A stretch of DNA of 64,000 nt from Minisyncoccota bacterium (GTDB lineage: Bacteria > Patescibacteriota > Minisyncoccia > Minisyncoccales > Minisyncoccaceae), in NCBI GenBank assembly GCA_041657645.1, contig JBBABL010000001.1, positions 1,407 to 65,406 on the forward strand, in the 5' to 3' direction. The position numbers and the translations under genes are program-made. This document shows positions 3 through 29,573 of this stretch, piece by piece. The notes under the pieces are model-generated. The model did not search any database. It saw only the letters and a program-made list of their open reading frames with translations, and was not told the origin of the DNA. The stretch's first letter is position 1. Every line of letters begins with the position of its first letter.

Positions 3-1577
3 GCTGTATGTAGACATAGCGACCTAGAGCCAAAGAGTAGCTGTAGGTTATGCTTAGTTTCAATCAAAGGAATAAATGGATTTCATACTTCCTGTTCAAC
101 GTATGTTGAGAATGGAATGGAGGTAACAACCGATTCTCCAGAAATTAGAAAATTAAGAAAGATTAATTTAGAACTTTTGTTTTCTCAACACATAGAACAA
201 TGCAACCAATGTAATTGGAAATATAAATGTAGGCTTTTGTCTTTAGCAAAGGACTATAATATTAAAATAACAAAGTTTAATGACAGAAAGAAAGGTTTCC
301 CTGAAAAGAAATTCGGACCATCGATAGTTTTTGATAGCTCAAAGTGTATTGATTGTAAAAACTGTGTTCAGATGTGCCAAAAACAAGGAATAGGATATTT
401 AACGGTTAAAGAAAAAGATGGTTTTTTCCAAGTAGTCACGGATCCGAAAAAAGAGTGTGTCTATTGCGGACAGTGCATAACTCATTGTCCAAGCGGAGCC
501 TTTGAAGAAGTAAGTTCAGTTGAAGATGTTGAAAAAGAATTAAAGAATAATTATGTTGTCTTTCAGTTTGCGCCTGCGATTAGAAGTAGTATTGGTGAAG
601 AATTCGGAATGCCTTATGGCTCTATAACTACAGGCAAGCTTGCTGCTAGTATTAAAAAATTAGGAGCAAAGAAAGTTTTTGATGTGTCTGTAAGCGCAGA
701 TATAACTACAATTGAAGAAGGAGGTGAGTTAATTGAGAGATTAAGTAGTGGTAAAAATTTACCAATGTTTACTTCTTGTTGTCCTTCTTGGGTTAGGTAT
801 GTTGAAGTGTATAGACCAGAATTAGCAAAAAATTTAACATCAGTAAGATCGCCACATATAATTTTAGGAGGTTTAACAAAAACATATTTTGCAAATAAAG
901 AAAAAATTGATCCTAAAAAAATTATTGTAGTTTCTGTAATGCCGTGTACATCTAAAAAATATGAAATATTGAGAGAAGAATTAAAAGTAGATGGAATGAA
1001 GCCAGTAGACTATGTTTTAACAACTAGAGAATTAGGGAGATTGCTTAAGAAAAATAATATAGATTTCAGTAATATAAAAGATGAAGCTCTTGATCCTCCA
1101 TGGAATGAATCTACAGGGGCCGGAGTTATATATGGAAATACGGGAGGAGTAATGGAGTCCGCATTAAGAACTGTTTATGAAAAGTTAACAGGGAAAGAAT
1201 TAAAAAAACTTGATTTTAAAGAGGTGAGAGGGTTGGAAGGATCTAAAGAAGCAAAAGTTAAGATAGGAAATAGAGTAGTTAATGTCGCCATTATTAATGG
1301 TTTAGGAAATATTGGCAAAATAGATCTTAAAAAATATGACTATATTGAGGTTATGGCTTGTCCAGGTGGATGTATCGGTGGAGGAGGACAGCCAATTCCA
1401 GTAGATAATGAGATAAGGGAAAAAAGAGCTTTATCTTTGTACAAAATAGATAAAAATAATAAAATAAGAATGGCACATAAAAGTCCAATAGTCGAAATGA
1501 TATACAAAGACTTTTTAAATAATAAAAAAAATATACATAAAACTTGCCATACAAAATATTTTCCTAAAAATAAATAA
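3..1577 (+). CDS. hydA: [FeFe]-hydrogenase catalytic subunit-like protein, 5'-partial (runs off the window start)
   Basis: The frame stays open to the window edge, and the upstream residues AVCRHSDLEPKSSCRLCLV look like a 2Fe-2S N-domain. There are two ferredoxin-type Cys clusters (CIDCKNCVQMC, CVYCGQCITHCP). The H-cluster signatures FTSCCPSWV, MPCTSKKYE and EVMACPGGCIGGGGQP are present, followed by a small-subunit-like C-terminal tail. Confidence 0.8.
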   Translation, partial: AVCRHSDLEPKSSCRLCLVSIKGINGFHTSCSTYVENGMEVTTDSPEIRKLRKINLELLFSQHIEQCNQCNWKYKCRLLSLAKDYNIKITKFNDRKKGFPEKKFGPSIVFDSSKCIDCKNCVQMCQKQGIGYLTVKEKDGFFQVVTDPKKECVYCGQCITHCPSGAFEEVSSVEDVEKELKNNYVVFQFAPAIRSSIGEEFGMPYGSITTGKLAASIKKLGAKKVFDVSVSADITTIEEGGELIERLSSGKNLPMFTSCCPSWVRYVEVYRPELAKNLTSVRSPHIILGGLTKTYFANKEKIDPKKIIVVSVMPCTSKKYEILREELKVDGMKPVDYVLTTRELGRLLKKNNIDFSNIKDEALDPPWNESTGAGVIYGNTGGVMESALRTVYEKLTGKELKKLDFKEVRGLEGSKEAKVKIGNRVVNVAIINGLGNIGKIDLKKYDYIEVMACPGGCIGGGGQPIPVDNEIREKRALSLYKIDKNNKIRMAHKSPIVEMIYKDFLNNKKNIHKTCHTKYFPKNK

Positions 1578-20931: not shown

Positions 20932-23304
20932 ATGGATTTAATAACATATATCTTAATTCTAATATTCATCTTATTATTAATAGTATTAATGCTATTAATT
21001 AAGAGATTGAACAATCATAAGACAATAAAGGAGTCCTTAGATTTTACCTTGTTCTCTGTTAAAATGAGCGGTGCCACTACTGAAGAAATTAGAGATTCGG
21101 GTAAGCAAGAGAAAGACTGGATTAAATCAATGGAAGATTTCTACAGTAGCCTTAATTCTTTATCAAAAGAAGGTGCCTTTGGAGTATCTCCATGGATAGC
21201 TTTAGAAATAGTAAAGCTTAAAGAGGAAATAGTTTTTTATGTGGCTACACCGAAAAGGTTTGAAAATTTTATTGAAAAAGAGATATATAGTTTGTATCCT
21301 TTTGCACAAGTAGAAAAAAGTGACGATTATAATATATTTGCTCCTACCGAAAATGTTTATTGCGGTTATTTAAAAACAACGAAACCTTTTTATCTTCCCA
21401 TTAAAACTTATAATAATATGGACTCTGATCCATTATCTTCAATCACAAACATATTTACCAAATTAAAAACTCACGAAGAAGCAGCTGTTCAGTTAGTTAT
21501 AAGAAAATCATCAAATAATTGGAGAGATAGAGCGAAAATGATTATTAATGAAGTTTCTCAAGGAAAGAATTTTACTCAAGCAATGGGAGCAACAAATTTA
21601 TTATCAACTATTAAAGGAAAAGACGAGAAAAATATTTATGAATCAAAAGTTGACGAAGAGCTTCTAGAGATTCTTGAATCTAAGATTAGTAAGAATAGTT
21701 TTGAAACAAATATTAGATTGGTTGTTTCTACTGATGATAAAAATAAAAGCGAAAGTGTGTTTTTACAAATGGCTAATTCTTTTGGGCAATTTAATTCTCC
21801 AAAGACAAATAGTTTTAGGCTTATAAGAACCAAGGGAAGATCTTTTGATGAGTTGATATATAAATATACTTTTAGACTTTTTGATTCTTCTTCAAGTAAT
21901 ATATTAGATACGGAAGAATTAACTAGTGTATTTCATTTTCCAACACCATTGACTAAGACACCAAATATAAAGGGAGTTAGCTCAAAAGTATCAGCACCAC
22001 CAATTAATCTTCCTAGCGAAGGATTATTATTAGGATATAATGAATATAGAGAAGAGAAAAAAGATATTAAAATGAAAAGAGATGACAGAAGAAGACATAT
22101 GTATATTATTGGACAAACCGGAACTGGTAAATCTTCTCTTCTTTCATCAATGGCTCTTCAAGATATTCAAAATGGAGAGGGAATTGGAATGTTAGACCCA
22201 CACGGTGATTTAATTGACGATGTTTTGAGTAAGATGCCTAAAGAAAGAATAGAAGATGTTGTTCTATTTGATCCAACAAATTTAGAAAGATCGGTTGGTT
22301 TGAATATGCTTGAGTATGATGCTCGTTTTCCAGAGCAAAAAACATTCATTGTTAATGAGATGATTAATATTTTAGATAAGCTTTACGACTTGAGACAAAC
22401 TGGTGGTCCAATGTTTGAGCAATATACTAGAAATGCCCTTATGCTTTTAATGGATGATCCTAACGATGTGTATACCTTAATGGAAATACCAAGGGTTTTA
22501 GCTGATACAGAATTTAGAAAAAGGCTTTTATCTAAATGTAAAAATATTTTAGTGAAGGAGTTCTGGGAAAAACAGGCAGAACAGGCAGGAGGAGATGCAG
22601 CATTAAAAAACATGGTGCCATATATTACATCTAAATTTGACAATTTTATATCTAATGACTATATGCGCCCTATTATTGGACAAACTAAAAGCACTTTTAA
22701 TTTTAGAGAAATTATTGATGGTAAAAAAGTATTTTTAGTTAATCTAAGTAAGGGAAGATTGGGTGAGATAAATAGTTCTCTTTTAGGATTAATCATTACA
22801 AGCAAATTATCGCTAGCTGCTTTTTCAAGGGTTGATATTCCTGAAAGTGAGAGAAAAGATTTTTACTTATATATGGATGAGTTCCAAAACTTTGCCACTA
22901 AAACAATCTCAATTATTTTATCAGAGGCAAGAAAGTATAGATTAGGTTTAATAATGTCTCACCAATTTATAGCTCAACTGCCTGAGGAAATAAGGGATAG
23001 TGTCTTTGGAAATGTTGGAACAATAGCTTCATTTAGAGTAGGAGCTGAAGATGCTAAGTTTTTGGAGAAAGAATTTGAGCCTGTATTTAATAGTCAAGAC
23101 TTAATGAATATTAACAACTTCAGTTTTTATATTAAAATGATGATGGATGGACAAATATCTAAACCTTTTAATGTTAAAACGTACTTACCAGAAAAAGGAA
23201 ATTATGAAAGAGCAAGTGATATTAAGGAGTATTATTCTTTGACTTATGCTAAAAGAAAACAAGCAGTTGAAGAGGAAATATCAAGAAGAAGGCTTGACAG
23301 ATAA
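20932..23304 (+). CDS. VirD4/TraD/TraG-like (type IV coupling protein family) P-loop ATPase with an N-terminal TM helix and a roughly 380-aa unassigned N-domain
   Basis: It has Walker A (IIGQTGTGKSS), Walker B-like FYLYMDEFQNF, and an ARKYRLGLIMSHQ motif. A single N-terminal hydrophobic helix is present (ITYILILIFILLLIVLMLLI). Confidence 0.7.
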   Translation: MDLITYILILIFILLLIVLMLLIKRLNNHKTIKESLDFTLFSVKMSGATTEEIRDSGKQEKDWIKSMEDFYSSLNSLSKEGAFGVSPWIALEIVKLKEEIVFYVATPKRFENFIEKEIYSLYPFAQVEKSDDYNIFAPTENVYCGYLKTTKPFYLPIKTYNNMDSDPLSSITNIFTKLKTHEEAAVQLVIRKSSNNWRDRAKMIINEVSQGKNFTQAMGATNLLSTIKGKDEKNIYESKVDEELLEILESKISKNSFETNIRLVVSTDDKNKSESVFLQMANSFGQFNSPKTNSFRLIRTKGRSFDELIYKYTFRLFDSSSSNILDTEELTSVFHFPTPLTKTPNIKGVSSKVSAPPINLPSEGLLLGYNEYREEKKDIKMKRDDRRRHMYIIGQTGTGKSSLLSSMALQDIQNGEGIGMLDPHGDLIDDVLSKMPKERIEDVVLFDPTNLERSVGLNMLEYDARFPEQKTFIVNEMINILDKLYDLRQTGGPMFEQYTRNALMLLMDDPNDVYTLMEIPRVLADTEFRKRLLSKCKNILVKEFWEKQAEQAGGDAALKNMVPYITSKFDNFISNDYMRPIIGQTKSTFNFREIIDGKKVFLVNLSKGRLGEINSSLLGLIITSKLSLAAFSRVDIPESERKDFYLYMDEFQNFATKTISIILSEARKYRLGLIMSHQFIAQLPEEIRDSVFGNVGTIASFRVGAEDAKFLEKEFEPVFNSQDLMNINNFSFYIKMMMDGQISKPFNVKTYLPEKGNYERASDIKEYYSLTYAKRKQAVEEEISRRRLDR

Positions 23305-23321
23305 TAGGTATATGTTAAAAT
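23294..23321 (+). promoter_or_regulatory. Putative extended -10 promoter inside the 3' end of the ATPase gene
   Basis: TTGACA (23294-23299) is followed by a 16-nt spacer ending in TGT, then TAAAAT (23316-23321). Confidence 0.5.
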
Positions 23322-23351
23322 TAACACATAATACGAATAATCAATAAAAAT

Positions 23352-24785
23352 ATGGAAAATAAAGAAAAAATAGACAACGAAGAAGATAAAATATTAGAGG
23401 TAGACGAACTTTCCAATGCTTATAATCCAGATAAATCTAGCGAAGTAGATAATTCTAAAATTATTGAAATAAAAGATATAGTTGATGATAAGATTGATCC
23501 TACTAAACCTGATGAAATCATTGAAATTGAAGACCTTGAGAAGCAACTTCCTCACAATAGAGAGTTCGATGAAGAAAATAAAATAGAAGATATCTTGAAT
23601 AAAGGAAAAGAAATAAAAGAAAATAGGGAAGAAGTAGAATTTATTATAAATGAAATAGAAAGATGGCTTGAGGATTTAAGATTAGCTAAAGATGATAAAA
23701 ATAAAGGAAAAGGTCTGCTTGCTAAGCTAGGATTGGGTAAAAAATCAACTGGATTAAGTGAAGATTATAAAAAGATACTTTTAGGGGGAAATAATATTGC
23801 AAAACAAGTTAATTTGTTAAAAGAAAACAATAAAAACATTGAATTTACAGCGGATCAGCAAGAAGTTTTGAACACCTTTGAAAGATTATTTGAAGATGAA
23901 AAAGAATCTCTTTCAGAAAGTGTTAAAAAAAGCATTGAAAAATCTGAAGAAAATACTGCTGAAGAAATTGAAGATATCTCGCCTGAACAAAAAAAATTAC
24001 TGGACAAAGTAAAGAAATTCTTAGGGAATAAGAGAGTTCAATTTGTTATAGGTGCATTAATAATAGGGCTAGCAGTTGCTGCCCCCCCTACAGGTGCCTT
24101 GAGTTTCTATACCCTTGGATTGTTGCCAGGATTTTTACCAGCTTCTGCTGCTACAAGTGCAACAGCTTTGACTAGTGCTGCTGGCGGGCTATTAATATCT
24201 CGTGAGGTTATTGAAGCATTTTTTAAAAAAGCTAAAGAAGGAGAAGTAATTAAAATTGCTGAGCCTGAAACTATTGTTAATAATGATGAAAGAGAGGAAG
24301 AAGATTTAGTTGGAGAAGAAGTGCTTGACAATCCAGTTGTTTCTGAAGAGCATCAAGAAAAAGAAATTGAGGAGGAAATGTTTGATAATCCAGTTGTTTC
24401 TGAAGAGCATCAAGAAGAAGAAATTGAGGAGGAAATGTTTGATAATCCAGTTGCTTCCGGGGAGTACCAACAGGCTCAAAAAGAAGTAAATGAAGAATTT
24501 GATGAAGAACCAATTGAAACATCTGAGCCTAAGGAAGAAAAAGATTACTTTAAGATAATTCAAGAAGGAATTAACGAAAAAGACCCTATAGAGGTAGGAT
24601 TTAAAGATAAAAGAACTGGAAGAGTAGATTCTTGGGGATGGAGAGCAGTTGATATTGTAAAATCTATCAATAACCAGCCAGATAAAATTCGTATTGAAAA
24701 GAAAGTAGCCAATGGAGGCGTATCTCTAAAATTAGTTGATTTAAATGATTTAATGTTTAAAAAATCTGATCAATTTAGAGTATAA
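23352..24785 (+). CDS. Highly acidic hypothetical membrane protein with tandem repeats
   Basis: The 477-aa protein is E/D/K-rich. It has a central Ala/Gly-rich hydrophobic pair of helices (FVIGALIIGLAVAAPP...LLPGFLPASAATSATALTSAAGGLLI), a 19-aa tandem repeat, and a basic C-terminal globular region. Confidence 0.6.
   Translation: MENKEKIDNEEDKILEVDELSNAYNPDKSSEVDNSKIIEIKDIVDDKIDPTKPDEIIEIEDLEKQLPHNREFDEENKIEDILNKGKEIKENREEVEFIINEIERWLEDLRLAKDDKNKGKGLLAKLGLGKKSTGLSEDYKKILLGGNNIAKQVNLLKENNKNIEFTADQQEVLNTFERLFEDEKESLSESVKKSIEKSEENTAEEIEDISPEQKKLLDKVKKFLGNKRVQFVIGALIIGLAVAAPPTGALSFYTLGLLPGFLPASAATSATALTSAAGGLLISREVIEAFFKKAKEGEVIKIAEPETIVNNDEREEEDLVGEEVLDNPVVSEEHQEKEIEEEMFDNPVVSEEHQEEEIEEEMFDNPVASGEYQQAQKEVNEEFDEEPIETSEPKEEKDYFKIIQEGINEKDPIEVGFKDKRTGRVDSWGWRAVDIVKSINNQPDKIRIEKKVANGGVSLKLVDLNDLMFKKSDQFRV
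24327..24473 (+). repeat. In-frame 57-nt tandem repeat (2 full copies plus 1 diverged partial copy)
   Basis: The unit at 24327-24383 recurs at 24384-24440 with 2 substitutions, encoding DNPVVSEEHQE(K/E)EIEEEMF. A third copy degenerates after DNPVAS. Confidence 0.9.
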
Positions 24786-25496: not shown

Positions 25497-28400
25497 ATGA
25501 AGGATGATTTACTTTCTGACTTGAATAAAGAACAAAAAGAAGCGGTTATTTTTAATAATGGACCGCTTTTGATTGTTGCAGGAGCAGGAACAGGAAAAAC
25601 AACAGTTTTAACAAGAAGAATAGCATATTTAATTAATAATGGAGTCAAACCAGAAGAGATTTTAGCTGTAACTTTTACCGAAAAGGCGGCCAGAGAAATG
25701 GAAGAAAGAGTAGAGAGTCTTTTGCCGTTTGATTATTATGATTTTTGGATTTCAACTTTTCATTCTTTTTGTGATAGGGTTTTAAAAAGGCACGGTTTGT
25801 CAATTGGCATACCAACTAATTATAGGTTATTAGAGTCAGCTGGAAGTTGGATGTTGATTAAGAAGAATTTTGATAAATTTAGTTTCTTGAAAGAGTATAG
25901 GCCACTTGGAAATCCAACTAAGTTTATTCAAGCTCTCGTTTCCCATTTTTCTCAATGTAAGAACGAAGGAATATATCCCGAAAATTATATTGAATATGAA
26001 AAATCTCTTAAGAATGACGATAACGATTTAGAGAGAATAAAAGAAGTAGCTAAAGCATACGAAGTTTATCAGCAATTATTATTAGATAATAATGTTTTAG
26101 ATTTTGGAGATTTAATAAACTATACACTAAAAATATTTGAAAAAAAGAAAGATGTTTTGGAGAGATACAGGAAGCAATTTAAGTATATTATGGTTGATGA
26201 ATTTCAAGATACAAATTGGGTTCAATATGAATTAATTAAAAAACTTGCCCATCCGAATAATAATATCACAATAGTCGGAGACGATGACCAATGTCTAATT
26301 GGAGATTCTAAAATAGATATATTAAAAGATAAAGAGATTAAAAAGATAAAGATTAAGAATGTTAAAAAAGGTGACGATGTTTTAACAGCAATAGGAAAAG
26401 GCCATTTAGGATTATCTCAAGTTAAAAATATCTCAAAAAGTAAAAAAAAGACTGAACTAATTACCGTTAAGACAAAAAGTGGAAATTGCTTAACTATTAC
26501 AGATAATCATAAGATGTTCTGCATGGTTCCTTCATCAGAAAGACGAATTAAGAATAATTATCATTATGTATATTTAATGTATAGAGATGATATTGGCTGG
26601 AGGATTGGGAAAACAGATAACTTATTCGGAAGATTAATGCTCGAAAGATCGGCAGACAGTATTATAGGGTTAAGAGATTTTGATAGTGATTCTGAAGCAA
26701 GGTATTATGAAACATTATGGTCTTTGAAGTACGGAATTCCTACGAGTTGTTTTTGTGAAAGGGAAGGAACCGTTATTAAAAAAGAATTACTTCGCAAGCT
26801 TTACGAGGAAATAGATGTTTCGAAGGGAGTCATAACTCTTGCTAGAGATTTAAATATTGATTTAAATACACATCATTGTTATTTGGGTGGAGTGAACAGG
26901 GGGAATAAAAAGAGAGTTAAAATTAATATTGTGATGTGTTCAAGAAATAGCAGGATTAAAAATGCAAAAGATATTATAGAGAATCCAAAAATTATACATA
27001 CACTAAATATTGATACTTCAATTAAAGAGATAATTGATAAATTAGAGAAAGCAGGTTTTAAATTAGCAAAAGCCAAAAATGGAAAAAAATTAGTTATAAG
27101 TAGTACCGATATACGGGAGATAGGCAAAAAAGCTAAAGAGCTTCAGAATCTTTTGGGTGGTTTTATAGATTTTAAATTTTATGCAGGGCTTGGGCTTGAT
27201 ATTAAAAATAAGAAAAGAAAAAATAACCCAGCAAAAGTTATTCCTGCCAAAAACTTGTTAAGAGGACATTATTTGCCAATTAAGAGAGGAAACGATGTTG
27301 TTTATGATGAAATTATTGATATTAAAAGAGAAAGTAAAACAGTTGATGTTTATGACCTAGAAGTAAAGGGGACTCATAATTTTATTGCTGAAGAAATTGT
27401 TGTTCATAATTCAATCTTTTCCTTTCAAGGAAGTTCGTTTAATAATGTTTTAAGATTTAAAAAAGATTATCCTAAATCTAAAGAAATTGTTCTAATAGAA
27501 AATTATAGGTCGCCACAGAACATTCTTGATTTATCATATAGTTTTATCCAAAAGAATAATCCTAATAGATTAGAGTGTAAATTAAATGATTCCGAGATAT
27601 TTTTAGATGCAGAAAAAAAAGGAATAGATTTGAAAAACTTTAAAGGTATAAGTAAAAAACTAAAAAGTAATCAAGACAAAGACGGTATTGTTGAGTTATT
27701 AAGTTTTGAAGGAGTTGATCAAGAGATAACAGGAGTTGTTAATAAGATTTGGGAAATTAAAGAAATAGATGATACATCATCTTTTTCGAGCTTTTCTATT
27801 TTAACAAGAACCAATAATGCTGCTGATATATTTTCTCGGGCGTTAGAAAGAGCAGGCATTCCTTATCAATTCATTTCTTCTAAAGGATTATACACGGATC
27901 CTTTAATAATAGACTTAATTTCCTACTTAAAAGTTGTTCTTAATTTTTATGACTCACTTAGTTTTTATAGAGTATTAAGATTAATGAATTTTTCTCCTGA
28001 AGAAGTTTCAATAATAATACAATATAGTGACAAGAAAGGAATTCCTATTTTTGAATCACTTAAGAATAGTCATTTGTTAAGTAAATTTACATCTGAAACA
28101 AAAGTAAAAATTAATAAACTAATTAAGAACCTTAATAATCATTACAATTTGTCAAAAGACAGAAATATTGGTGAAGTTTTTGTTAATGTTATTCAAGATC
28201 TTGAGTACGGTAAATATATTCCAGAAAATACAGAAGATGGTTTTAGAAAGTGGGAATTAATTGATCAATTTTATGAGAAAGCGAAAGAATTTGAAAATTC
28301 TCAAGCTGATGCAAAACTTCCTGCCTTTATTGAAAATATTCAGATGGAGTTAGATGCAGGAGAAGAAGGATCATTAAGGAAAAATATTGATTCTCATTTT

Positions 28401-29573
28401 GACGCAGTAAGAATAATGACAGTTCACTCAGCAAAAGGACTAGAATTTGATTATGTTTTTGTTCCTTATCTAGTTTCAAGGTCTTTTCCATCTGATCAAA
28501 AGAGGGATCCAATAGAATTGCCTGATGATTTAATTAAAGAAGTTCTACCTCAAGGTGATTTTCACATTCAAGAAGAAAGAAGACTTTTCTATGTCGCCCT
28601 AACAAGAGCAAAAAAGGGAATGTTTTTAACATGGAGTGCTGATCATGGCGGAAAACAACTTAAAAAACCATCAAGATTTTTAATAGAATCAGAACTTATT
28701 AGTGAGGATATAATTAAGAATCAAAAGTTTGAAAGAAGTCCAGGTTTTTGTATAAAGAGGGTATTAAATTTTAAGCAAGAGTCAGACGAGACAAATGGTT
28801 CGGGAAAAGATTTAAAACTTTTTATGCCAGATCATTTTTCTTACTCTCAGTTAGAATCATTTAGAAAATGTCCCCTTGAGTATAAGCTTAAAAATATATT
28901 GAAGATACCAATAAGAGGAAAGTCAGTTTTTAGTTTTGGTAAAACTATTCACGCAGTAACTCATAAATTTGTTAATGAAGCTTTTAAAAAAGAACAAACA
29001 GATATATTCAAGAATGATTTAAAAACTCTTTATAAAATATATGACGAAGAGTGGATTTCTGATTGGTATAAATCAGCAGAAGAACAAAAAGAGTTTTATA
29101 ATAAAGGAAAAGAAATACTTAAAAATTTCTATAACGACCTTAAAGAAAATCATAACATTCTCTCAATAAATGATGAGCTAGCATTAGAAAAAGGATTTCA
29201 ACTTAAATTAAATGTAGATGTTGTAATTGGAATGATTGACAGAATTGATGAAGTAAGGGGAGGAGTTGAAATTATTGACTACAAGACAGGTTCTCCTAAA
29301 AAGACGCTATCTAAAGAAGATAAGTTGCAATTATTAATATATGCCTTAGCAGCTAAGAATGTTTTAGGACTTAATCCAGTTAAATTAACATACTATTACC
29401 TAGAAGATTGTTCAAAAGCTTCCTTTGATGTTAAAGATGGAATTATTGAAAAGACAGAAGAAGAATTAAAAGAATTAATTAAAAAAGTCAAAAGAAGTAA
29501 CTTTAAGCCTTCAGGAGGATGGCATTGTCAATTCTGTGACTTTAGAGATATTTGTGCACATAAAAAAAAATAA
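25497..29573 (+). CDS. UvrD/PcrA/AddA-type SF1 helicase with a C-terminal Cas4/AddB-like Fe-S PD-(D/E)xK nuclease, interrupted by an intein
   Basis: Helicase motifs are LIVAGAGTGKTTVL (Walker A), IMVDEFQDTN (II), VGDDDQ|...|SIFSFQGSS (III, split), NYRS, and MTVHSAKGLEFD / LFYVALTRAK (V-VI). The nuclease tail has FSYSQLESFRKCPLEY, IDRIDEV...IIDYKTG, and CQFCDFRDIC. Confidence 0.9.
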   Translation: MKDDLLSDLNKEQKEAVIFNNGPLLIVAGAGTGKTTVLTRRIAYLINNGVKPEEILAVTFTEKAAREMEERVESLLPFDYYDFWISTFHSFCDRVLKRHGLSIGIPTNYRLLESAGSWMLIKKNFDKFSFLKEYRPLGNPTKFIQALVSHFSQCKNEGIYPENYIEYEKSLKNDDNDLERIKEVAKAYEVYQQLLLDNNVLDFGDLINYTLKIFEKKKDVLERYRKQFKYIMVDEFQDTNWVQYELIKKLAHPNNNITIVGDDDQCLIGDSKIDILKDKEIKKIKIKNVKKGDDVLTAIGKGHLGLSQVKNISKSKKKTELITVKTKSGNCLTITDNHKMFCMVPSSERRIKNNYHYVYLMYRDDIGWRIGKTDNLFGRLMLERSADSIIGLRDFDSDSEARYYETLWSLKYGIPTSCFCEREGTVIKKELLRKLYEEIDVSKGVITLARDLNIDLNTHHCYLGGVNRGNKKRVKINIVMCSRNSRIKNAKDIIENPKIIHTLNIDTSIKEIIDKLEKAGFKLAKAKNGKKLVISSTDIREIGKKAKELQNLLGGFIDFKFYAGLGLDIKNKKRKNNPAKVIPAKNLLRGHYLPIKRGNDVVYDEIIDIKRESKTVDVYDLEVKGTHNFIAEEIVVHNSIFSFQGSSFNNVLRFKKDYPKSKEIVLIENYRSPQNILDLSYSFIQKNNPNRLECKLNDSEIFLDAEKKGIDLKNFKGISKKLKSNQDKDGIVELLSFEGVDQEITGVVNKIWEIKEIDDTSSFSSFSILTRTNNAADIFSRALERAGIPYQFISSKGLYTDPLIIDLISYLKVVLNFYDSLSFYRVLRLMNFSPEEVSIIIQYSDKKGIPIFESLKNSHLLSKFTSETKVKINKLIKNLNNHYNLSKDRNIGEVFVNVIQDLEYGKYIPENTEDGFRKWELIDQFYEKAKEFENSQADAKLPAFIENIQMELDAGEEGSLRKNIDSHFDAVRIMTVHSAKGLEFDYVFVPYLVSRSFPSDQKRDPIELPDDLIKEVLPQGDFHIQEERRLFYVALTRAKKGMFLTWSADHGGKQLKKPSRFLIESELISEDIIKNQKFERSPGFCIKRVLNFKQESDETNGSGKDLKLFMPDHFSYSQLESFRKCPLEYKLKNILKIPIRGKSVFSFGKTIHAVTHKFVNEAFKKEQTDIFKNDLKTLYKIYDEEWISDWYKSAEEQKEFYNKGKEILKNFYNDLKENHNILSINDELALEKGFQLKLNVDVVIGMIDRIDEVRGGVEIIDYKTGSPKKTLSKEDKLQLLIYALAAKNVLGLNPVKLTYYYLEDCSKASFDVKDGIIEKTEEELKELIKKVKRSNFKPSGGWHCQFCDFRDICAHKKK
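26292..27410 (+). mobile_element. Intein (373 aa, residues 266-638 of the helicase) with a central endonuclease-like domain
   Basis: It begins with Cys directly after VGDDDQ and ends with VVHN, followed by Ser. Hint blocks are present: CLIGDSKI (A), TITDNHKMF (B), VYDLEVKGTHNFIA (F), and EIVVHN (G). Removing it restores the canonical motif III, VGDDDQSIFSFQG. Confidence 0.85.

What the first reader, a model, noticed from the sequence alone, without database searches (positions are those of the whole stretch)
26292..27410. Intein in helicase motif III whose central domain looks GIY-YIG-like rather than LAGLIDADG or HNH
The helicase sequence reads VGDDDQ-CLIGDSK...EIVVHN-SIFSFQGSS. Deleting the 373 codons from Cys266 to Asn638 restores the canonical SF1 motif III (VGDxDQSIYxFRG). 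The insert carries Hint blocks A, B, F and G with a +1 Ser, so an intein call is well supported.

The roughly 250-aa middle part has no LAGLIDADG-like dodecapeptides and no HNH Cys/His pattern. Instead, from about 26559 to 26760 it reads YVYLMYRDDIGWRIGKT..FGRLMLER...ARYYETLWSLKYG. This matches the spacing of GIY (about 10 aa) YIG..R...E..W...GYN in GIY-YIG nucleases such as I-TevI.

As far as I know, GIY-YIG homing modules are known in group I introns and free-standing genes but are not a standard intein payload. A chimeric Hint plus GIY-YIG element would therefore be unusual.
Basis: partly seen in the sequence, partly recalled or inferred. Interest (0 to 1): 0.72.

Follow-up and report, generated by a model that had tools for sequence, protein, structure and literature searches.

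The report
Helicase intein with GIY-YIG-like endonuclease
A self-splicing protein insert (intein) in a DNA-repair helicase carries a cutting module that looks like a divergent GIY-YIG nuclease, a type the searchable literature says does not occur inside inteins, and the same element turns up in at least 15 bacterial phyla and in phages.

Summary
Window 26292-27410 encodes a 373-aa class-1 intein (Cys1, TxxH, Asp355, His-Asn, +1 Ser) that splits motif III of a UvrD/PcrA-like helicase-nuclease. Removing it in silico restores a full-length UvrD domain match.

The roughly 235-aa middle part matches no Pfam or NCBIfam family above threshold. A full HMMER profile search shows it defines a large family: 459 representative clusters, at least 120 GTDB species in 15 phyla, and 14 viral contigs. 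Nearly all copies sit at the same helicase site.

Its N-terminal module (intein residues 87-160) looks like a divergent GIY-YIG domain. No single test is strong, but they agree:
- PF01541 is the Pfam family most often hit, below threshold but in register.
- hhalign against real GIY-YIG domains gives z=6 over shuffles.
- The best PDB sequence hit is a GIY-YIG protein.
- Foldseek against viral structures returns mostly GIY-YIG nucleases.
- The confident AF2 model has the hairpin, Arg-helix, linker-strand, Glu-helix order.
- Tyr94, Gly106, Arg114 and Glu140 are conserved as strongly as the splicing residues.

Differences from canonical GIY-YIG: the YIG Tyr is Arg and the His/Tyr partner is Glu. 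No LAGLIDADG or HNH signature is present. The rest of the insert is an unassigned, basic, probably DNA-binding region. Nuclease and splicing activity are inferred, not shown.

The parts
25497..26291 (+). N-extein: UvrD/PcrA-like SF1 helicase, motifs Q to the first half of motif III (ends ...VGDDDQ)
   Evidence: PF00580 residues 9-266, TIGR01073 pcrA. Junction read.
26292..27410 (+). Whole intein, 373 aa, class 1 (Cys1 ... His372-Asn373, followed by Ser+1 at 27411-27413)
   Evidence: PF14890 74.9 bits, TIGR01445 and TIGR01443 above cutoff. Codons verified.
26292..26525 (+). Hint N-terminal part (intein aa 1-78): block A Cys1 (26292-26294), block B Thr70/His73 (26499-26510)
   Evidence: TIGR01445 aa 1-76. 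C1 100%, T70 96% and H73 100% conserved in 96 family inteins. AF2 beta-rich with pLDDT 87-93.
26550..26771 (+). GIY-YIG-like catalytic module (intein aa 87-160). Candidate active-site codons: Tyr94 26571-26573, Arg104 26601-26603, Gly106 26607-26609, Arg114 26631-26633, Glu118 26643-26645, Glu140 26709-26711
   Evidence: PF01541 in register; hhalign z=6; 1zg2 top PDB hit; Foldseek BFVD GIY-YIG hits; beta-beta-alpha-beta-alpha, pLDDT >90; residues 98-99% conserved; codons.
26772..26861 (+). Helical pair (intein aa 161-190) with family motif [IL]-D-T...A.[KR]-L..D-L-G-[LI]-D; possible HTH- or HhH-like DNA-contact element
   Evidence: AF2 helices at central residues 86-95 and 98-108. Column composition. 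Only scattered weak HhH/IF2_N/E3_binding Pfam hits. The functional assignment is inference.
26862..27191 (+). C-terminal alpha/beta module of the central domain (intein aa 191-300), basic (pI about 10), near-invariant His236 (26997-26999); probable DNA-recognition region of unassigned fold family
   Evidence: AF2 strand/helix order with pLDDT about 85-98. pI and charge. No consistent Pfam or PDB sequence hit. Only weak Foldseek resemblance to LAGLIDADG scaffolds.
27192..27230 (+). Lys-rich low-confidence linker (intein aa 301-313)
   Evidence: pLDDT <50 at the end of the central-domain model. Composition.
27231..27410 (+). Hint C-terminal part (intein aa 314-373): block F Asp355 (27354-27356), block G His372-Asn373 (27405-27410)
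   Evidence: TIGR01443 aa 352-373. PDB DnaB and other mini-inteins match aa 318-373. D355 99%, H372 99% and N373 100% conserved.
27411..29573 (+). C-extein: the rest of motif III (SIFSFQGSS), UvrD_C domain and a C-terminal PD-(D/E)XK (Cas4/AddB-like) nuclease with a Cys cluster
   Evidence: PF13361 and PF12705. Continuity after in-silico splicing.

Best explanation
This is a mobile class-1 intein whose homing endonuclease is a divergent GIY-YIG-type nuclease rather than a LAGLIDADG or HNH domain.

The proposed mechanism has three steps.

(1) Splicing. The 1358-aa precursor is translated. The split Hint domain (aa 1-78 and 314-373) folds around the central insert and carries out protein splicing. 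Cys1 makes the thioester, Ser+1 attacks it, Asn373 cyclises, and Thr70/His73, Asp355 and His372 assist. The products are a 985-aa helicase-nuclease with an intact motif III (VGDDDQ-SIFSFQG) and the free intein.

(2) Cleavage. The intein binds the intein-less allele at the DNA that encodes motif III. In the window this is ATAGTCGGAGACGATGACCAA|TCAATCTTTTCCTTTCAAGGA. Binding uses the basic C-terminal alpha/beta module and the helical pair. The GIY-YIG-like module cuts. Tyr94 is the general base. Arg114 on the 'arginine helix' and Arg104 (in place of the YIG tyrosine, as Lys is in Hpy188I) hold the scissile phosphate. Glu140 on the 'glutamate helix' anchors one divalent metal.

(3) Homing. Recombinational repair from the intein-bearing allele copies the element in.

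Because the target encodes one of the most conserved SF1-helicase motifs, the element can persist and move across very distant bacteria and phages.

Shown here: the intein anatomy, the existence and distribution of the family, the conservation pattern, and the fold and sequence resemblance to GIY-YIG.

Inferred: splicing activity, nuclease activity, the residue roles, the target site, and which parts bind DNA.
For: Intein:
- Curated models score above threshold.
- All splicing residues are present in the window copy and 96-100% conserved in the family.
- Excision restores a full-length PF00580 match.

Family:
- The HMMER profile search finds 459 clusters at E<=1e-3 and 161 at E<=1e-10.
- Nearly all are at GDxxQ|C...HN|[SC]IYxFRG.
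- 119 of 120 GTDB pattern hits were verified, covering 15 phyla and including cultured Clostridium aquiflavi, Leptolyngbya and Nodosilinea.
- 14 of 14 IMG/VR viral hits were verified.

GIY-YIG likeness:
- PF01541 is the most frequently hit Pfam family among 57 members.
- It is hit by all three family consensus sequences over profile positions 1-69 of 78. MUG113 and T5orf172 also appear. I-TevII, annotated as a GIY-YIG homing endonuclease, scores no better at 17.2 bits.
- hhalign P=0.0024, z=6.0, with 0 of 150 shuffles reaching the observed score and a reversed control at 7.4.
- The top hit among 177,635 PDB sequences is the GIY-YIG protein 1zg2, in the same register, and Foldseek also finds it.
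- In BFVD Foldseek ranks 5-50, the named hits are mostly GIY-YIG-superfamily nucleases at probability 0.9-1.0.
- The AF2 model (pLDDT 89.5) has the hairpin, helix, strand, helix order that Sokolowska 2011 describe.
- Y94, R104, G106, R114, E118 and E140 are 98-99% conserved.
- The C-terminal module gives only scattered hits when tested the same way, so it acts as an internal negative control.

Mobility:
- Intein and extein identities are discordant in both directions.
- The same module occurs in inteins at a second site in P0143, P0095 and P0089.
Against: - No match to any GIY-YIG model passes a curated threshold: Pfam 12-17 bits against a 22.6 cutoff, and NCBIfam gives none.
- hhalign probability is only 8-12%.
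- Foldseek against the PDB has nothing at E<=1e-3, and its nominally best named hits are LAGLIDADG meganucleases.
- The individual GIY-YIG hits in BFVD have E=0.006-0.1.
- Two canonical positions differ: the YIG Tyr is Arg, and the His/Tyr proton-relay partner is Glu. No equivalent of the conserved Asn was identified.
- My GIY-YIG reference alignment has only seven sequences. Three of those four were validated by their PF01541 scores. The typed I-TevI domain was checked only through its close database relatives.
- I could not superimpose active-site residues because no coordinates were available.
- No experiment shows splicing or cleavage.
Confidence: 0.72

Rival explanations
1. The module descends from GIY-YIG but no longer cuts DNA. 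It would survive as a DNA-binding, folding or regulatory domain of a vertically inherited, domesticated intein.
For: - Non-canonical residues sit at two catalytic-site positions: Arg for the YIG Tyr and Glu for the His/Tyr partner.
- Intein and extein identities correlate at r=0.66, so much of the history looks vertical.
- Intein composition matches the host, with no sign of recent arrival in this window.
Against: - The general-base Tyr, the Arg-helix Arg, the steric Gly and the metal-binding Glu are 98-99% conserved across members that share only about 30% identity. That equals the conservation of the splicing residues.
- A basic residue at the YIG Tyr position has a precedent in the active enzyme Hpy188I.
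- The distribution is sporadic across 15 phyla plus phages, the module occurs at a second insertion site, and some inteins are much more similar than their exteins.
Confidence: 0.14
2. The resemblance to GIY-YIG is convergent or spurious. The central domain would be a new fold family, either a nuclease with a different mechanism or a non-nuclease domain.
For: - Every sequence match is below threshold.
- Foldseek against the PDB finds nothing significant.
- A small beta-beta-alpha-beta-alpha unit is a common arrangement.
- About two thirds of the central domain has no assignable relatives at all.
Against: - Five different methods and libraries each put GIY-YIG first, and in the same residue register.
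- The shuffle control gives z=6.
- The invariant residues fall on the GIY-YIG catalytic positions in the right secondary-structure elements.
- The C-module tested in the same way shows no such agreement.
Confidence: 0.1
3. The central domain is a degenerate LAGLIDADG or HNH endonuclease domain, or a decayed linker, as in most known inteins.
For: - The Foldseek PDB hits ranked 2-6 are monomeric LAGLIDADG meganucleases, at E=0.03-0.07, probability 0.15-0.20, TM about 0.2 and rmsd about 16 A.
- The C-terminal module has an alpha-beta-beta-alpha-beta-beta-alpha order like a LAGLIDADG half-domain.
Against: - None of 96 family inteins has a LAGLIDADG-like motif under a pattern that detects both motifs in a control LAGLIDADG intein.
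- No LAGLIDADG or HNH Pfam family appears among the families shown for members or consensus sequences.
- There are no conserved Cys or Asn columns and only two partly conserved His.
- BFVD hits include no LAGLIDADG or HNH protein.
- A decayed linker would not show residues conserved at 98-100% or a pLDDT of about 90.
Confidence: 0.04

Closest known systems
GIY-YIG homing endonucleases of group I introns and free-standing phage genes (I-TevI, I-BmoI, I-TevII, Seg proteins)
   Same: - A small N-terminal catalytic module with a beta-hairpin carrying the general-base Tyr and a conserved Gly.
- An Arg helix, a linker strand and a Glu helix, followed by separate DNA-binding modules.
- A selfish-element lifestyle that targets conserved genes.
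   Different: - Here the module is translated in frame inside a Hint domain, not from an intron ORF or a free-standing gene.
- The YIG Tyr is Arg, the His/Tyr partner is Glu, and no conserved Asn was identified.
- No NUMOD or Zn-finger modules were detected. The DNA-binding part is a different, unassigned alpha/beta domain.
- Sequence similarity is below Pfam threshold.
[quoted passage not shown]
   Same: It is an active GIY-YIG enzyme in which the YIG tyrosine is naturally replaced by a basic residue (Lys) that donates a hydrogen bond to the scissile phosphate (PMC3045582). This family has an invariant Arg at that position.
   Different: Hpy188I is a dimeric restriction enzyme with a domain-swapped Glu helix and a short target. 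There is no Hint domain and no detectable close sequence relationship.
Classical inteins with LAGLIDADG (e.g. PI-SceI) or HNH endonuclease domains
   Same: The overall layout is the same: Hint N-part, endonuclease insert, Hint C-part. The class-1 splicing residues match, and the element is inserted in a conserved motif of a DNA-metabolism enzyme. P0095 carries such a LAGLIDADG intein in the same helicase.
   Different: The endonuclease insert has no LAGLIDADG or HNH features, and its catalytic module resembles GIY-YIG instead.
'Fractured genes': split inteins with a free-standing GIY-YIG or Vsr-like endonuclease gene between the halves (Dassa et al. 2009, PMC2677866)
   Same: An intein is associated with a GIY-YIG homing endonuclease at one locus. 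The authors proposed such loci as a route by which inteins could acquire new endonuclease types.
   Different: In those loci the nuclease is a separate ORF and the intein is split. Here it is one continuous reading frame with an in-frame nuclease. No sizeable alternative-frame ORF lies in the insert; the only one is an 82-aa antisense ORF.
Non-canonical intein endonucleases in actinobacteriophages (Gosselin et al. 2025 preprint): in-frame HNH, antisense LAGLIDADG or VSR-like, out-of-frame EndoVII-like
   Same: These are further examples showing that inteins recruited nucleases other than in-frame LAGLIDADG.
   Different: None of them is an in-frame GIY-YIG. The hosts there are phage terminase, polymerase, capsid and ThyX proteins. 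Here the hosts are bacterial and phage SF1 helicases.

Membership tests
Intein (Hint-domain protein-splicing element, class 1) | N-terminal nucleophile (Cys/Ser1) and block B TxxH | tested here: met
   Cys1 (26292-26294) and Thr70/His73 (26499-26510) are present. They are 100%, 96% and 100% conserved in 96 family inteins.
Intein (Hint-domain protein-splicing element, class 1) | C-terminal His-Asn followed by a Cys/Ser/Thr +1, and block F Asp | tested here: met
   His372-Asn373, Ser+1 and Asp355 are all present.
Intein (Hint-domain protein-splicing element, class 1) | Scores above the curated thresholds of intein profile models | tested here: met
   PF14890 74.9 bits (cutoff 35.8), TIGR01445 28.1 (24.5), TIGR01443 28.4 (15.6).
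Intein (Hint-domain protein-splicing element, class 1) | In-frame insert in a conserved host motif whose removal restores the host domain | tested here: met
   PF00580 becomes full length (1-271 of 271) and gains 22.7 bits after in-silico splicing. The same site is used in over 100 homologs.
Intein (Hint-domain protein-splicing element, class 1) | Protein splicing actually occurs | not testable with these tools
   Needs expression of the precursor and detection of the ligated exteins.
GIY-YIG nuclease superfamily | 'GIY' motif: conserved Tyr on the first strand of the hairpin (the general base) | tested here: met
   Tyr94 is 99% conserved. It aligns to I-TevI Tyr6 and to the 1zg2 YVY and lies on strand E13-20 of the model.
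GIY-YIG nuclease superfamily | 'YIG' motif: Tyr and Gly on the second strand | tested here: inconclusive
   Gly106 is 99% conserved and aligned. The Tyr position holds an invariant Arg104. A basic residue (Lys) occupies this position in active Hpy188I, so this is a known kind of deviation, but the canonical Tyr is absent.
GIY-YIG nuclease superfamily | Invariant Arg on the following helix (the 'arginine helix') | tested here: met
   Arg114 is 99% conserved and lies on helix H33-39. It aligns to I-TevI Arg27 and to the 1zg2 Arg.
GIY-YIG nuclease superfamily | His or Tyr four residues after the Arg (proton-relay partner of the GIY Tyr) | tested here: not met
   This position is Glu118, 99% conserved. 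It aligns to His31 of I-TevI (by ungapped continuation from the hhalign-aligned Arg114/Arg27) and to His of 1zg2.
GIY-YIG nuclease superfamily | Metal-binding Glu on the last core helix (the 'glutamate helix'), after a linker strand | tested here: met
   Glu140 is 99% conserved on helix H55-69, after strand E45-52. It aligns to I-TevI Glu75.
GIY-YIG nuclease superfamily | Conserved Asn after the Glu helix (Asn90 of I-TevI; residue number from my own knowledge) | tested here: inconclusive
   No Asn column reaches 50% conservation in the central domain. The family instead has Y147-G-I-P150-T...F154 at that place. No residue-level equivalence could be established without coordinates.
GIY-YIG nuclease superfamily | Three-dimensional fold match to solved or predicted GIY-YIG domains | tested here: inconclusive
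   In BFVD many GIY-YIG-superfamily hits have probability 0.9-1.0 but E=0.006-0.1, with rmsd 1.9-8 A over 65-115 columns. In the PDB only 1zg2 appears, at E=0.36. The search used the whole three-part model because cropping was not possible.
GIY-YIG nuclease superfamily | Profile score above the curated family threshold (PF01541, 22.6 bits) | tested here: not met
   Scores are 12.3-17.0 bits for consensus sequences, and the best member reaches E=0.0088. The annotated GIY-YIG endonucleases I-TevII (17.2 bits) and SegF (no hit) also fail this threshold. NCBIfam gives no hit.
GIY-YIG nuclease superfamily | Metal-dependent DNA cleavage | not testable with these tools
   Needs biochemistry.
LAGLIDADG homing endonucleases | One or two LAGLIDADG motifs, each at the start of an alpha-beta-beta-alpha-beta-beta-alpha domain | tested here: not met
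   0 of 96 family inteins carry such a motif, while both motifs in the control intein are found. No LAGLIDADG Pfam family appears among those shown. Only a weak fold resemblance exists.
HNH (beta-beta-alpha-Me) homing endonucleases | Conserved His-Asn-His (and usually Cys/His zinc ligands) on a beta-beta-alpha unit | tested here: not met
   There is no conserved Asn or Cys. Only His195 (76%) and His236 (85%) are conserved, and both lie outside the N-terminal module. No HNH Pfam hits were found.

The most novel reading that the evidence does not exclude
The endonuclease may be a true hybrid. A GIY-YIG catalytic module would have been grafted onto a DNA-binding scaffold that is the surviving half of an ancestral LAGLIDADG domain. 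The evidence is that the C-terminal module has the alpha-beta-beta-alpha-beta-beta-alpha order and that the whole model weakly matches monomeric meganucleases. That would mean a nuclease 'engine swap' took place inside an existing intein. Such an architecture would combine sequence-tolerant monomeric GIY-YIG cleavage with saddle-type recognition, and it has since retargeted itself to at least two helicase sites.
Probability: 0.1. Interest if true: 0.85.

Novelty: new variant of a known kind. Interest (0 to 1): 0.7.

Why it matters
Reviews and surveys from 2006 to 2025 state or imply that GIY-YIG nucleases occur in group I introns and as free-standing genes, but not inside inteins.

This finding points to a large, phylogenetically broad intein family that uses a GIY-YIG-type module in frame. 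It spans at least 15 bacterial phyla and phages, and it occupies at least two insertion sites.

If that is right, it matters in four ways:
- It adds a third in-frame nuclease class to inteins.
- It supports the view that mini-inteins were invaded independently by different nucleases.
- It defines a conserved domain family that Pfam and NCBIfam do not cover, so public annotations label these proteins only as 'PcrA/UvrD helicase' or 'hypothetical'.
- It offers compact, probably monomeric nuclease and DNA-recognition modules aimed at a conserved helicase motif. These could interest nuclease engineers, and the splicing domain could interest intein engineers.

It is directly testable with a splicing assay and a cleavage assay.

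Tried and rejected
- Single-sequence Pfam, NCBIfam, PHROGs and PDB searches of the insert found only the Hint parts.
- The word-indexed homolog search was nearly blind to the family. It gave 2 hits and 3 hits with the alignment. With I-TevI it gave only 9 near-identical hits, too narrow for a reference set.
- AF2 with a 3-sequence alignment gave an unusable central region, pLDDT 30-56. This model was discarded in favour of the 57-sequence model.
- Foldseek against the PDB was inconclusive.
- tblastn against 50,697 GenBank phage genomes found nothing.
I replaced it with a hand-made degenerate DNA pattern.
- NCBIfam on family consensus sequences gave no GIY-YIG hit. PHROGs gave only marginal 'endonuclease' hits.
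- My first LAGLIDADG regex failed its positive control, so I discarded it. The loosened version passed.
- The C-terminal module could not be assigned. Its profile against PDB sequences and its members against Pfam gave only scatter.
- I considered hidden endonuclease ORFs in other frames or on the antisense strand of the insert. The only one is an 82-aa low-complexity antisense ORF, so I rejected the idea.
- I considered a foreign-DNA composition signal. The intein's GC content (27-34%) matches its surroundings.
- Literature searches for a GIY-YIG intein or a UvrD motif III intein found nothing.
Full report
THE OBSERVATION

The window's ORF 25497..29573 (+) encodes a 1358-aa protein. Its N- and C-terminal parts are a UvrD/PcrA-type SF1 helicase (PF00580, PF13361; TIGR01073 is the best NCBIfam model) fused to a C-terminal PD-(D/E)XK nuclease (PF12705).

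Between ...ITIVGDDDQ and SIFSFQGSS... lie exactly 373 codons, 26292-27410. They begin with Cys and end with His-Asn, followed by Ser.

Curated intein models score above their cutoffs: PF14890 74.9 bits against 35.8, TIGR01445 28.1 against 24.5, and TIGR01443 28.4 against 15.6. Solved mini-inteins align to the C-terminal blocks.

When the insert is removed in silico, the PF00580 match extends from profile positions 1-251 to the full 1-271 and gains 22.7 bits. UvrD_C then follows at once.

THE CENTRAL DOMAIN IS A LARGE, UNANNOTATED FAMILY

Intein residues about 79-313 match nothing in Pfam, NCBIfam, PHROGs or PDB sequences when searched alone. The word-indexed homolog search found only two relatives, both partial Patescibacteria-type helicases with the insert at the same site.

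A full HMMER search with a three-sequence profile of the central domain against 1.84 billion cluster representatives found 459 proteins at E<=1e-3 and 161 at E<=1e-10. In nearly all of them the domain sits between Hint blocks at ...GDxxQ|C...HN|[SC]IYxFRG, which is SF1 helicase motif III. Complete inteins are very uniform in length, with a median of 361 aa.

I scanned the GTDB species-representative genomes with a degenerate DNA pattern for the family signature. They come from Patescibacteria, Chloroflexota, Actinomycetota, Deinococcota, Cyanobacteriota, Bacillota, Bacteroidota, Planctomycetota, Acidobacteriota, Pseudomonadota, Elusimicrobiota, Methylomirabilota, Myxococcota, Omnitrophota and Dormiibacterota. 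They include cultured Clostridium aquiflavi, Leptolyngbya sp. AN10 and Nodosilinea sp. LEGE 07088.

All 14 pattern hits in IMG/VR viral contigs are also family members. Public names for members are only 'PcrA/UvrD helicase' or 'hypothetical protein'.

IS THE DOMAIN GIY-YIG-LIKE?

With a 57-sequence alignment, AlphaFold2 gave a confident model of the central domain (pLDDT 89.5, pTM 0.81). Its first 70 residues form a beta-hairpin, a helix, a strand and a helix. This is the order that Sokolowska et al. describe as the GIY-YIG hairpin, arginine helix, linker strand and glutamate helix (PMC3045582).

Across 96 inteins, the residues on these elements are each 98-99% conserved: Tyr94, Arg104, Gly106, Arg114, Glu118 and Glu140 (intein numbering). 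That is as strong as the splicing residues Cys1, His73, Asp355, His372 and Asn373. The window copy has all of them.

Sequence tests:
- PF01541 GIY-YIG is the Pfam family hit by the most members, 3 of 57 with best E=0.0088. One further member hits T5orf172.
- All three family consensus sequences hit PF01541 in register (profile 1-69 of 78; 12-17 bits; E=0.007-0.22). One also hits MUG113.
- As a calibration, the annotated GIY-YIG homing endonuclease I-TevII scores only 17.2 bits, and SegF does not hit at all.
- hhalign of a 95-sequence N-module alignment against a seven-member GIY-YIG reference scored 21.2 (P=0.0024). The null from 150 column shuffles was 9.6+-1.9 with a maximum of 18.2, giving z=6.0. 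The reversed reference scored 7.4.
The typed I-TevI domain was checked only against its close database relatives.
- The alignments pair Tyr94 with I-TevI Tyr6, Arg104 with Tyr17, Gly106 with Gly19, Arg114 with Arg27 and Glu140 with Glu75. Glu118 pairs with His31 by ungapped continuation from Arg114/Arg27.
- The N-module profile searched against 177,635 distinct PDB sequences has as its best hit the GIY-YIG protein 1zg2 (UPF0213 family; E=0.11), in the same register.

Fold tests:
- Foldseek against the PDB gave nothing at E<=1e-3. It returned weak, poorly superimposing LAGLIDADG meganuclease hits (TM about 0.2, rmsd about 16 A) and 1zg2 at E=0.36.
- Foldseek against BFVD first returned three large viral proteins that evidently contain the same domain (E=1e-9 to 2e-5).
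- After those came a list in which the named hits are mostly GIY-YIG endonucleases, group I intron endonucleases, T5orf172 and NUMOD proteins. They have probability 0.9-1.0 over 65-115 columns and E=0.006-0.1. No LAGLIDADG or HNH protein appears.

Negative results:
- NCBIfam shows no GIY-YIG hit.
- PHROGs shows only marginal 'endonuclease' hits.

As an internal control, the C-terminal module treated in the same way gives only scattered, mutually inconsistent hits.

A pattern that finds both LAGLIDADG motifs of a control intein (P0095) finds none in 96 family inteins. There is no conserved Cys or Asn that could make an HNH site.

I conclude, at roughly 80% confidence, that residues 87-160 are a divergent member of, or descend from, the GIY-YIG fold. 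Formally it fails the curated-threshold test and two motif positions.

DEVIATIONS FROM CANONICAL GIY-YIG

The YIG tyrosine is an invariant Arg. In Hpy188I that tyrosine is Lys, and its role is to donate a hydrogen bond to the scissile phosphate, so Arg is a plausible functional replacement.

The His/Tyr that partners the general-base Tyr is Glu118. No equivalent of the conserved Asn was found. These changes make this a distinct subfamily, and they are the main reason to keep the rival 'inactive or different chemistry' alive.

THE REST OF THE INSERT

Residues 161-190 form two helices with a conserved [IL]DT...A.[KR]L..DLG[LI]D motif. Residues 191-300 form a basic (pI about 10) alpha/beta module with a near-invariant His236.

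By analogy with the modular GIY-YIG homing enzymes, I infer that these bind DNA and supply specificity. Nothing here tests that.

The module's alpha-beta-beta-alpha-beta-beta-alpha order and the weak PDB hits leave a small chance that it is a relic LAGLIDADG half-domain.

MOBILITY

Over 160 complete inteins with flanks, intein and extein identities correlate (r=0.66), but there are outliers in both directions. Some pairs have inteins 44-51% identical in helicases only 15-21% identical, including a viral copy. Other pairs have helicases 51-56% identical with inteins 28-32% identical.

P0143, P0095 and P0089 each carry two inteins with this module in one helicase. One is at motif III and one is just after motif II (VDEAQDLNK|C...SHN|CQH). 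P0095 also has a classical LAGLIDADG intein in its P-loop.

The reconstructed intein-less junction is conserved at codon positions 1 and 2 across 102 sites (46.7 bits over 42 nt), as expected for a homing site that encodes a catalytic motif.

Together with the sporadic, cross-phylum and phage distribution, this fits an element that still moves, or moved repeatedly. The window copy itself shows no compositional sign of recent arrival.

COMPARISON WITH WHAT IS KNOWN

- Dunin-Horkawicz et al. [quoted passage not shown]
- Dassa et al. [quoted passage not shown] They describe them only as separate genes between split-intein halves.
- A 2025 survey of non-canonical intein endonucleases lists HNH, antisense LAGLIDADG or VSR-like, and EndoVII-like types, but no in-frame GIY-YIG.
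- UvrD, Rep and PcrA are listed as intein hosts. I found no description of this site or of its endonuclease type.
- The library does not cover subscription journals, so an earlier report cannot be excluded.

VERDICT

The intein is real and ordinary in its splicing part. Its endonuclease part is a previously unannotated, widespread domain family whose catalytic module is best explained as a divergent GIY-YIG nuclease. This is a new variant of a known kind of element.

- This is a large family and not a unique chimera.
- The 'YIG' tyrosine is an arginine.
- Two thirds of the insert remain unassigned.

Interest is 0.70. Confidence in the full mechanistic reading is 0.72.

Noticed in passing
P0143 aa 679-1077 and 1117-1464; P0095 aa ~295-710, ~1220-1625 and ~1665-2004; P0089 (proteins): Single SF1 helicases carry two inteins that both have this GIY-YIG-like module. 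One is at motif III and one is just after motif II (VDEAQDLNK|C...SHN|CQH). P0095 also has a classical LAGLIDADG intein in its P-loop (GAGSGK|C...SHN|T). P0108 has two partial copies. P0144 and P0145 have another, unrelated intein ending ...VHN|CQD.
   Followed up: partly
Loci L010, L018, L030, L078, L083, L091, L108 (also L017, L041, L085, L092): In these genomes the family match spans 390-610 aa instead of about 225 aa. That suggests an extra insertion or a nested element inside the central domain, or a second copy. L078 is from the cultured Clostridium aquiflavi strain 5 N-1.
   Followed up: no
BFVD entries A0A140G655, A0A8S5V111, A0A8S5TZY8: The best structural matches to the central domain are large viral proteins. 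One is named DNA 3'-5' helicase and one is named adenine-specific DNA methyltransferase. The domain, and presumably the intein, may therefore also sit in other phage proteins. Their sequences could not be retrieved here.
   Followed up: no
window 27411-27437 (host motif III, C-extein side): The host reads SIFSFQGSS where most family hosts read SIYxFRGA. The aromatic Tyr is Phe and the conserved Arg is Gln. Close Patescibacteria relatives share this (SIFSFCGAS, SIFRFQGAS, SIYSFQGAS). It may mark a helicase subfamily with altered DNA or nucleotide contacts.
   Followed up: no
window 28800-29573 (C-terminus of the same ORF): The helicase is fused to a PD-(D/E)XK/Cas4-like nuclease domain that ends in a Cys cluster (C..C..C within WHCQFCDFRDIC). 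This is an AddA/AddB-like single-chain helicase-nuclease.
   Followed up: partly
window 20932-24785: A 790-aa ORF has weak matches to type IV secretion coupling proteins (TrwB/VirD4-like) and HerA. It is followed by a 477-aa highly acidic, repeat-containing ORF with a hydrophobic segment and no Pfam match.
   Followed up: no
window 117-1574: A [FeFe]-hydrogenase large subunit with ferredoxin-like domains lies in a roughly 30% GC genome whose intein relatives point to Patescibacteria. Other window genes (SecA, BipA, EF-G, SecY, CTP synthase) show this is a cellular chromosome.
   Followed up: no
window 26879-27127 (minus strand): An 82-aa TTG-start antisense ORF lies inside the intein. It is low-complexity and hydrophobic, and most likely a chance ORF in AT-rich DNA rather than an antisense endonuclease gene of the kind reported in some phage inteins.
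   Followed up: partly
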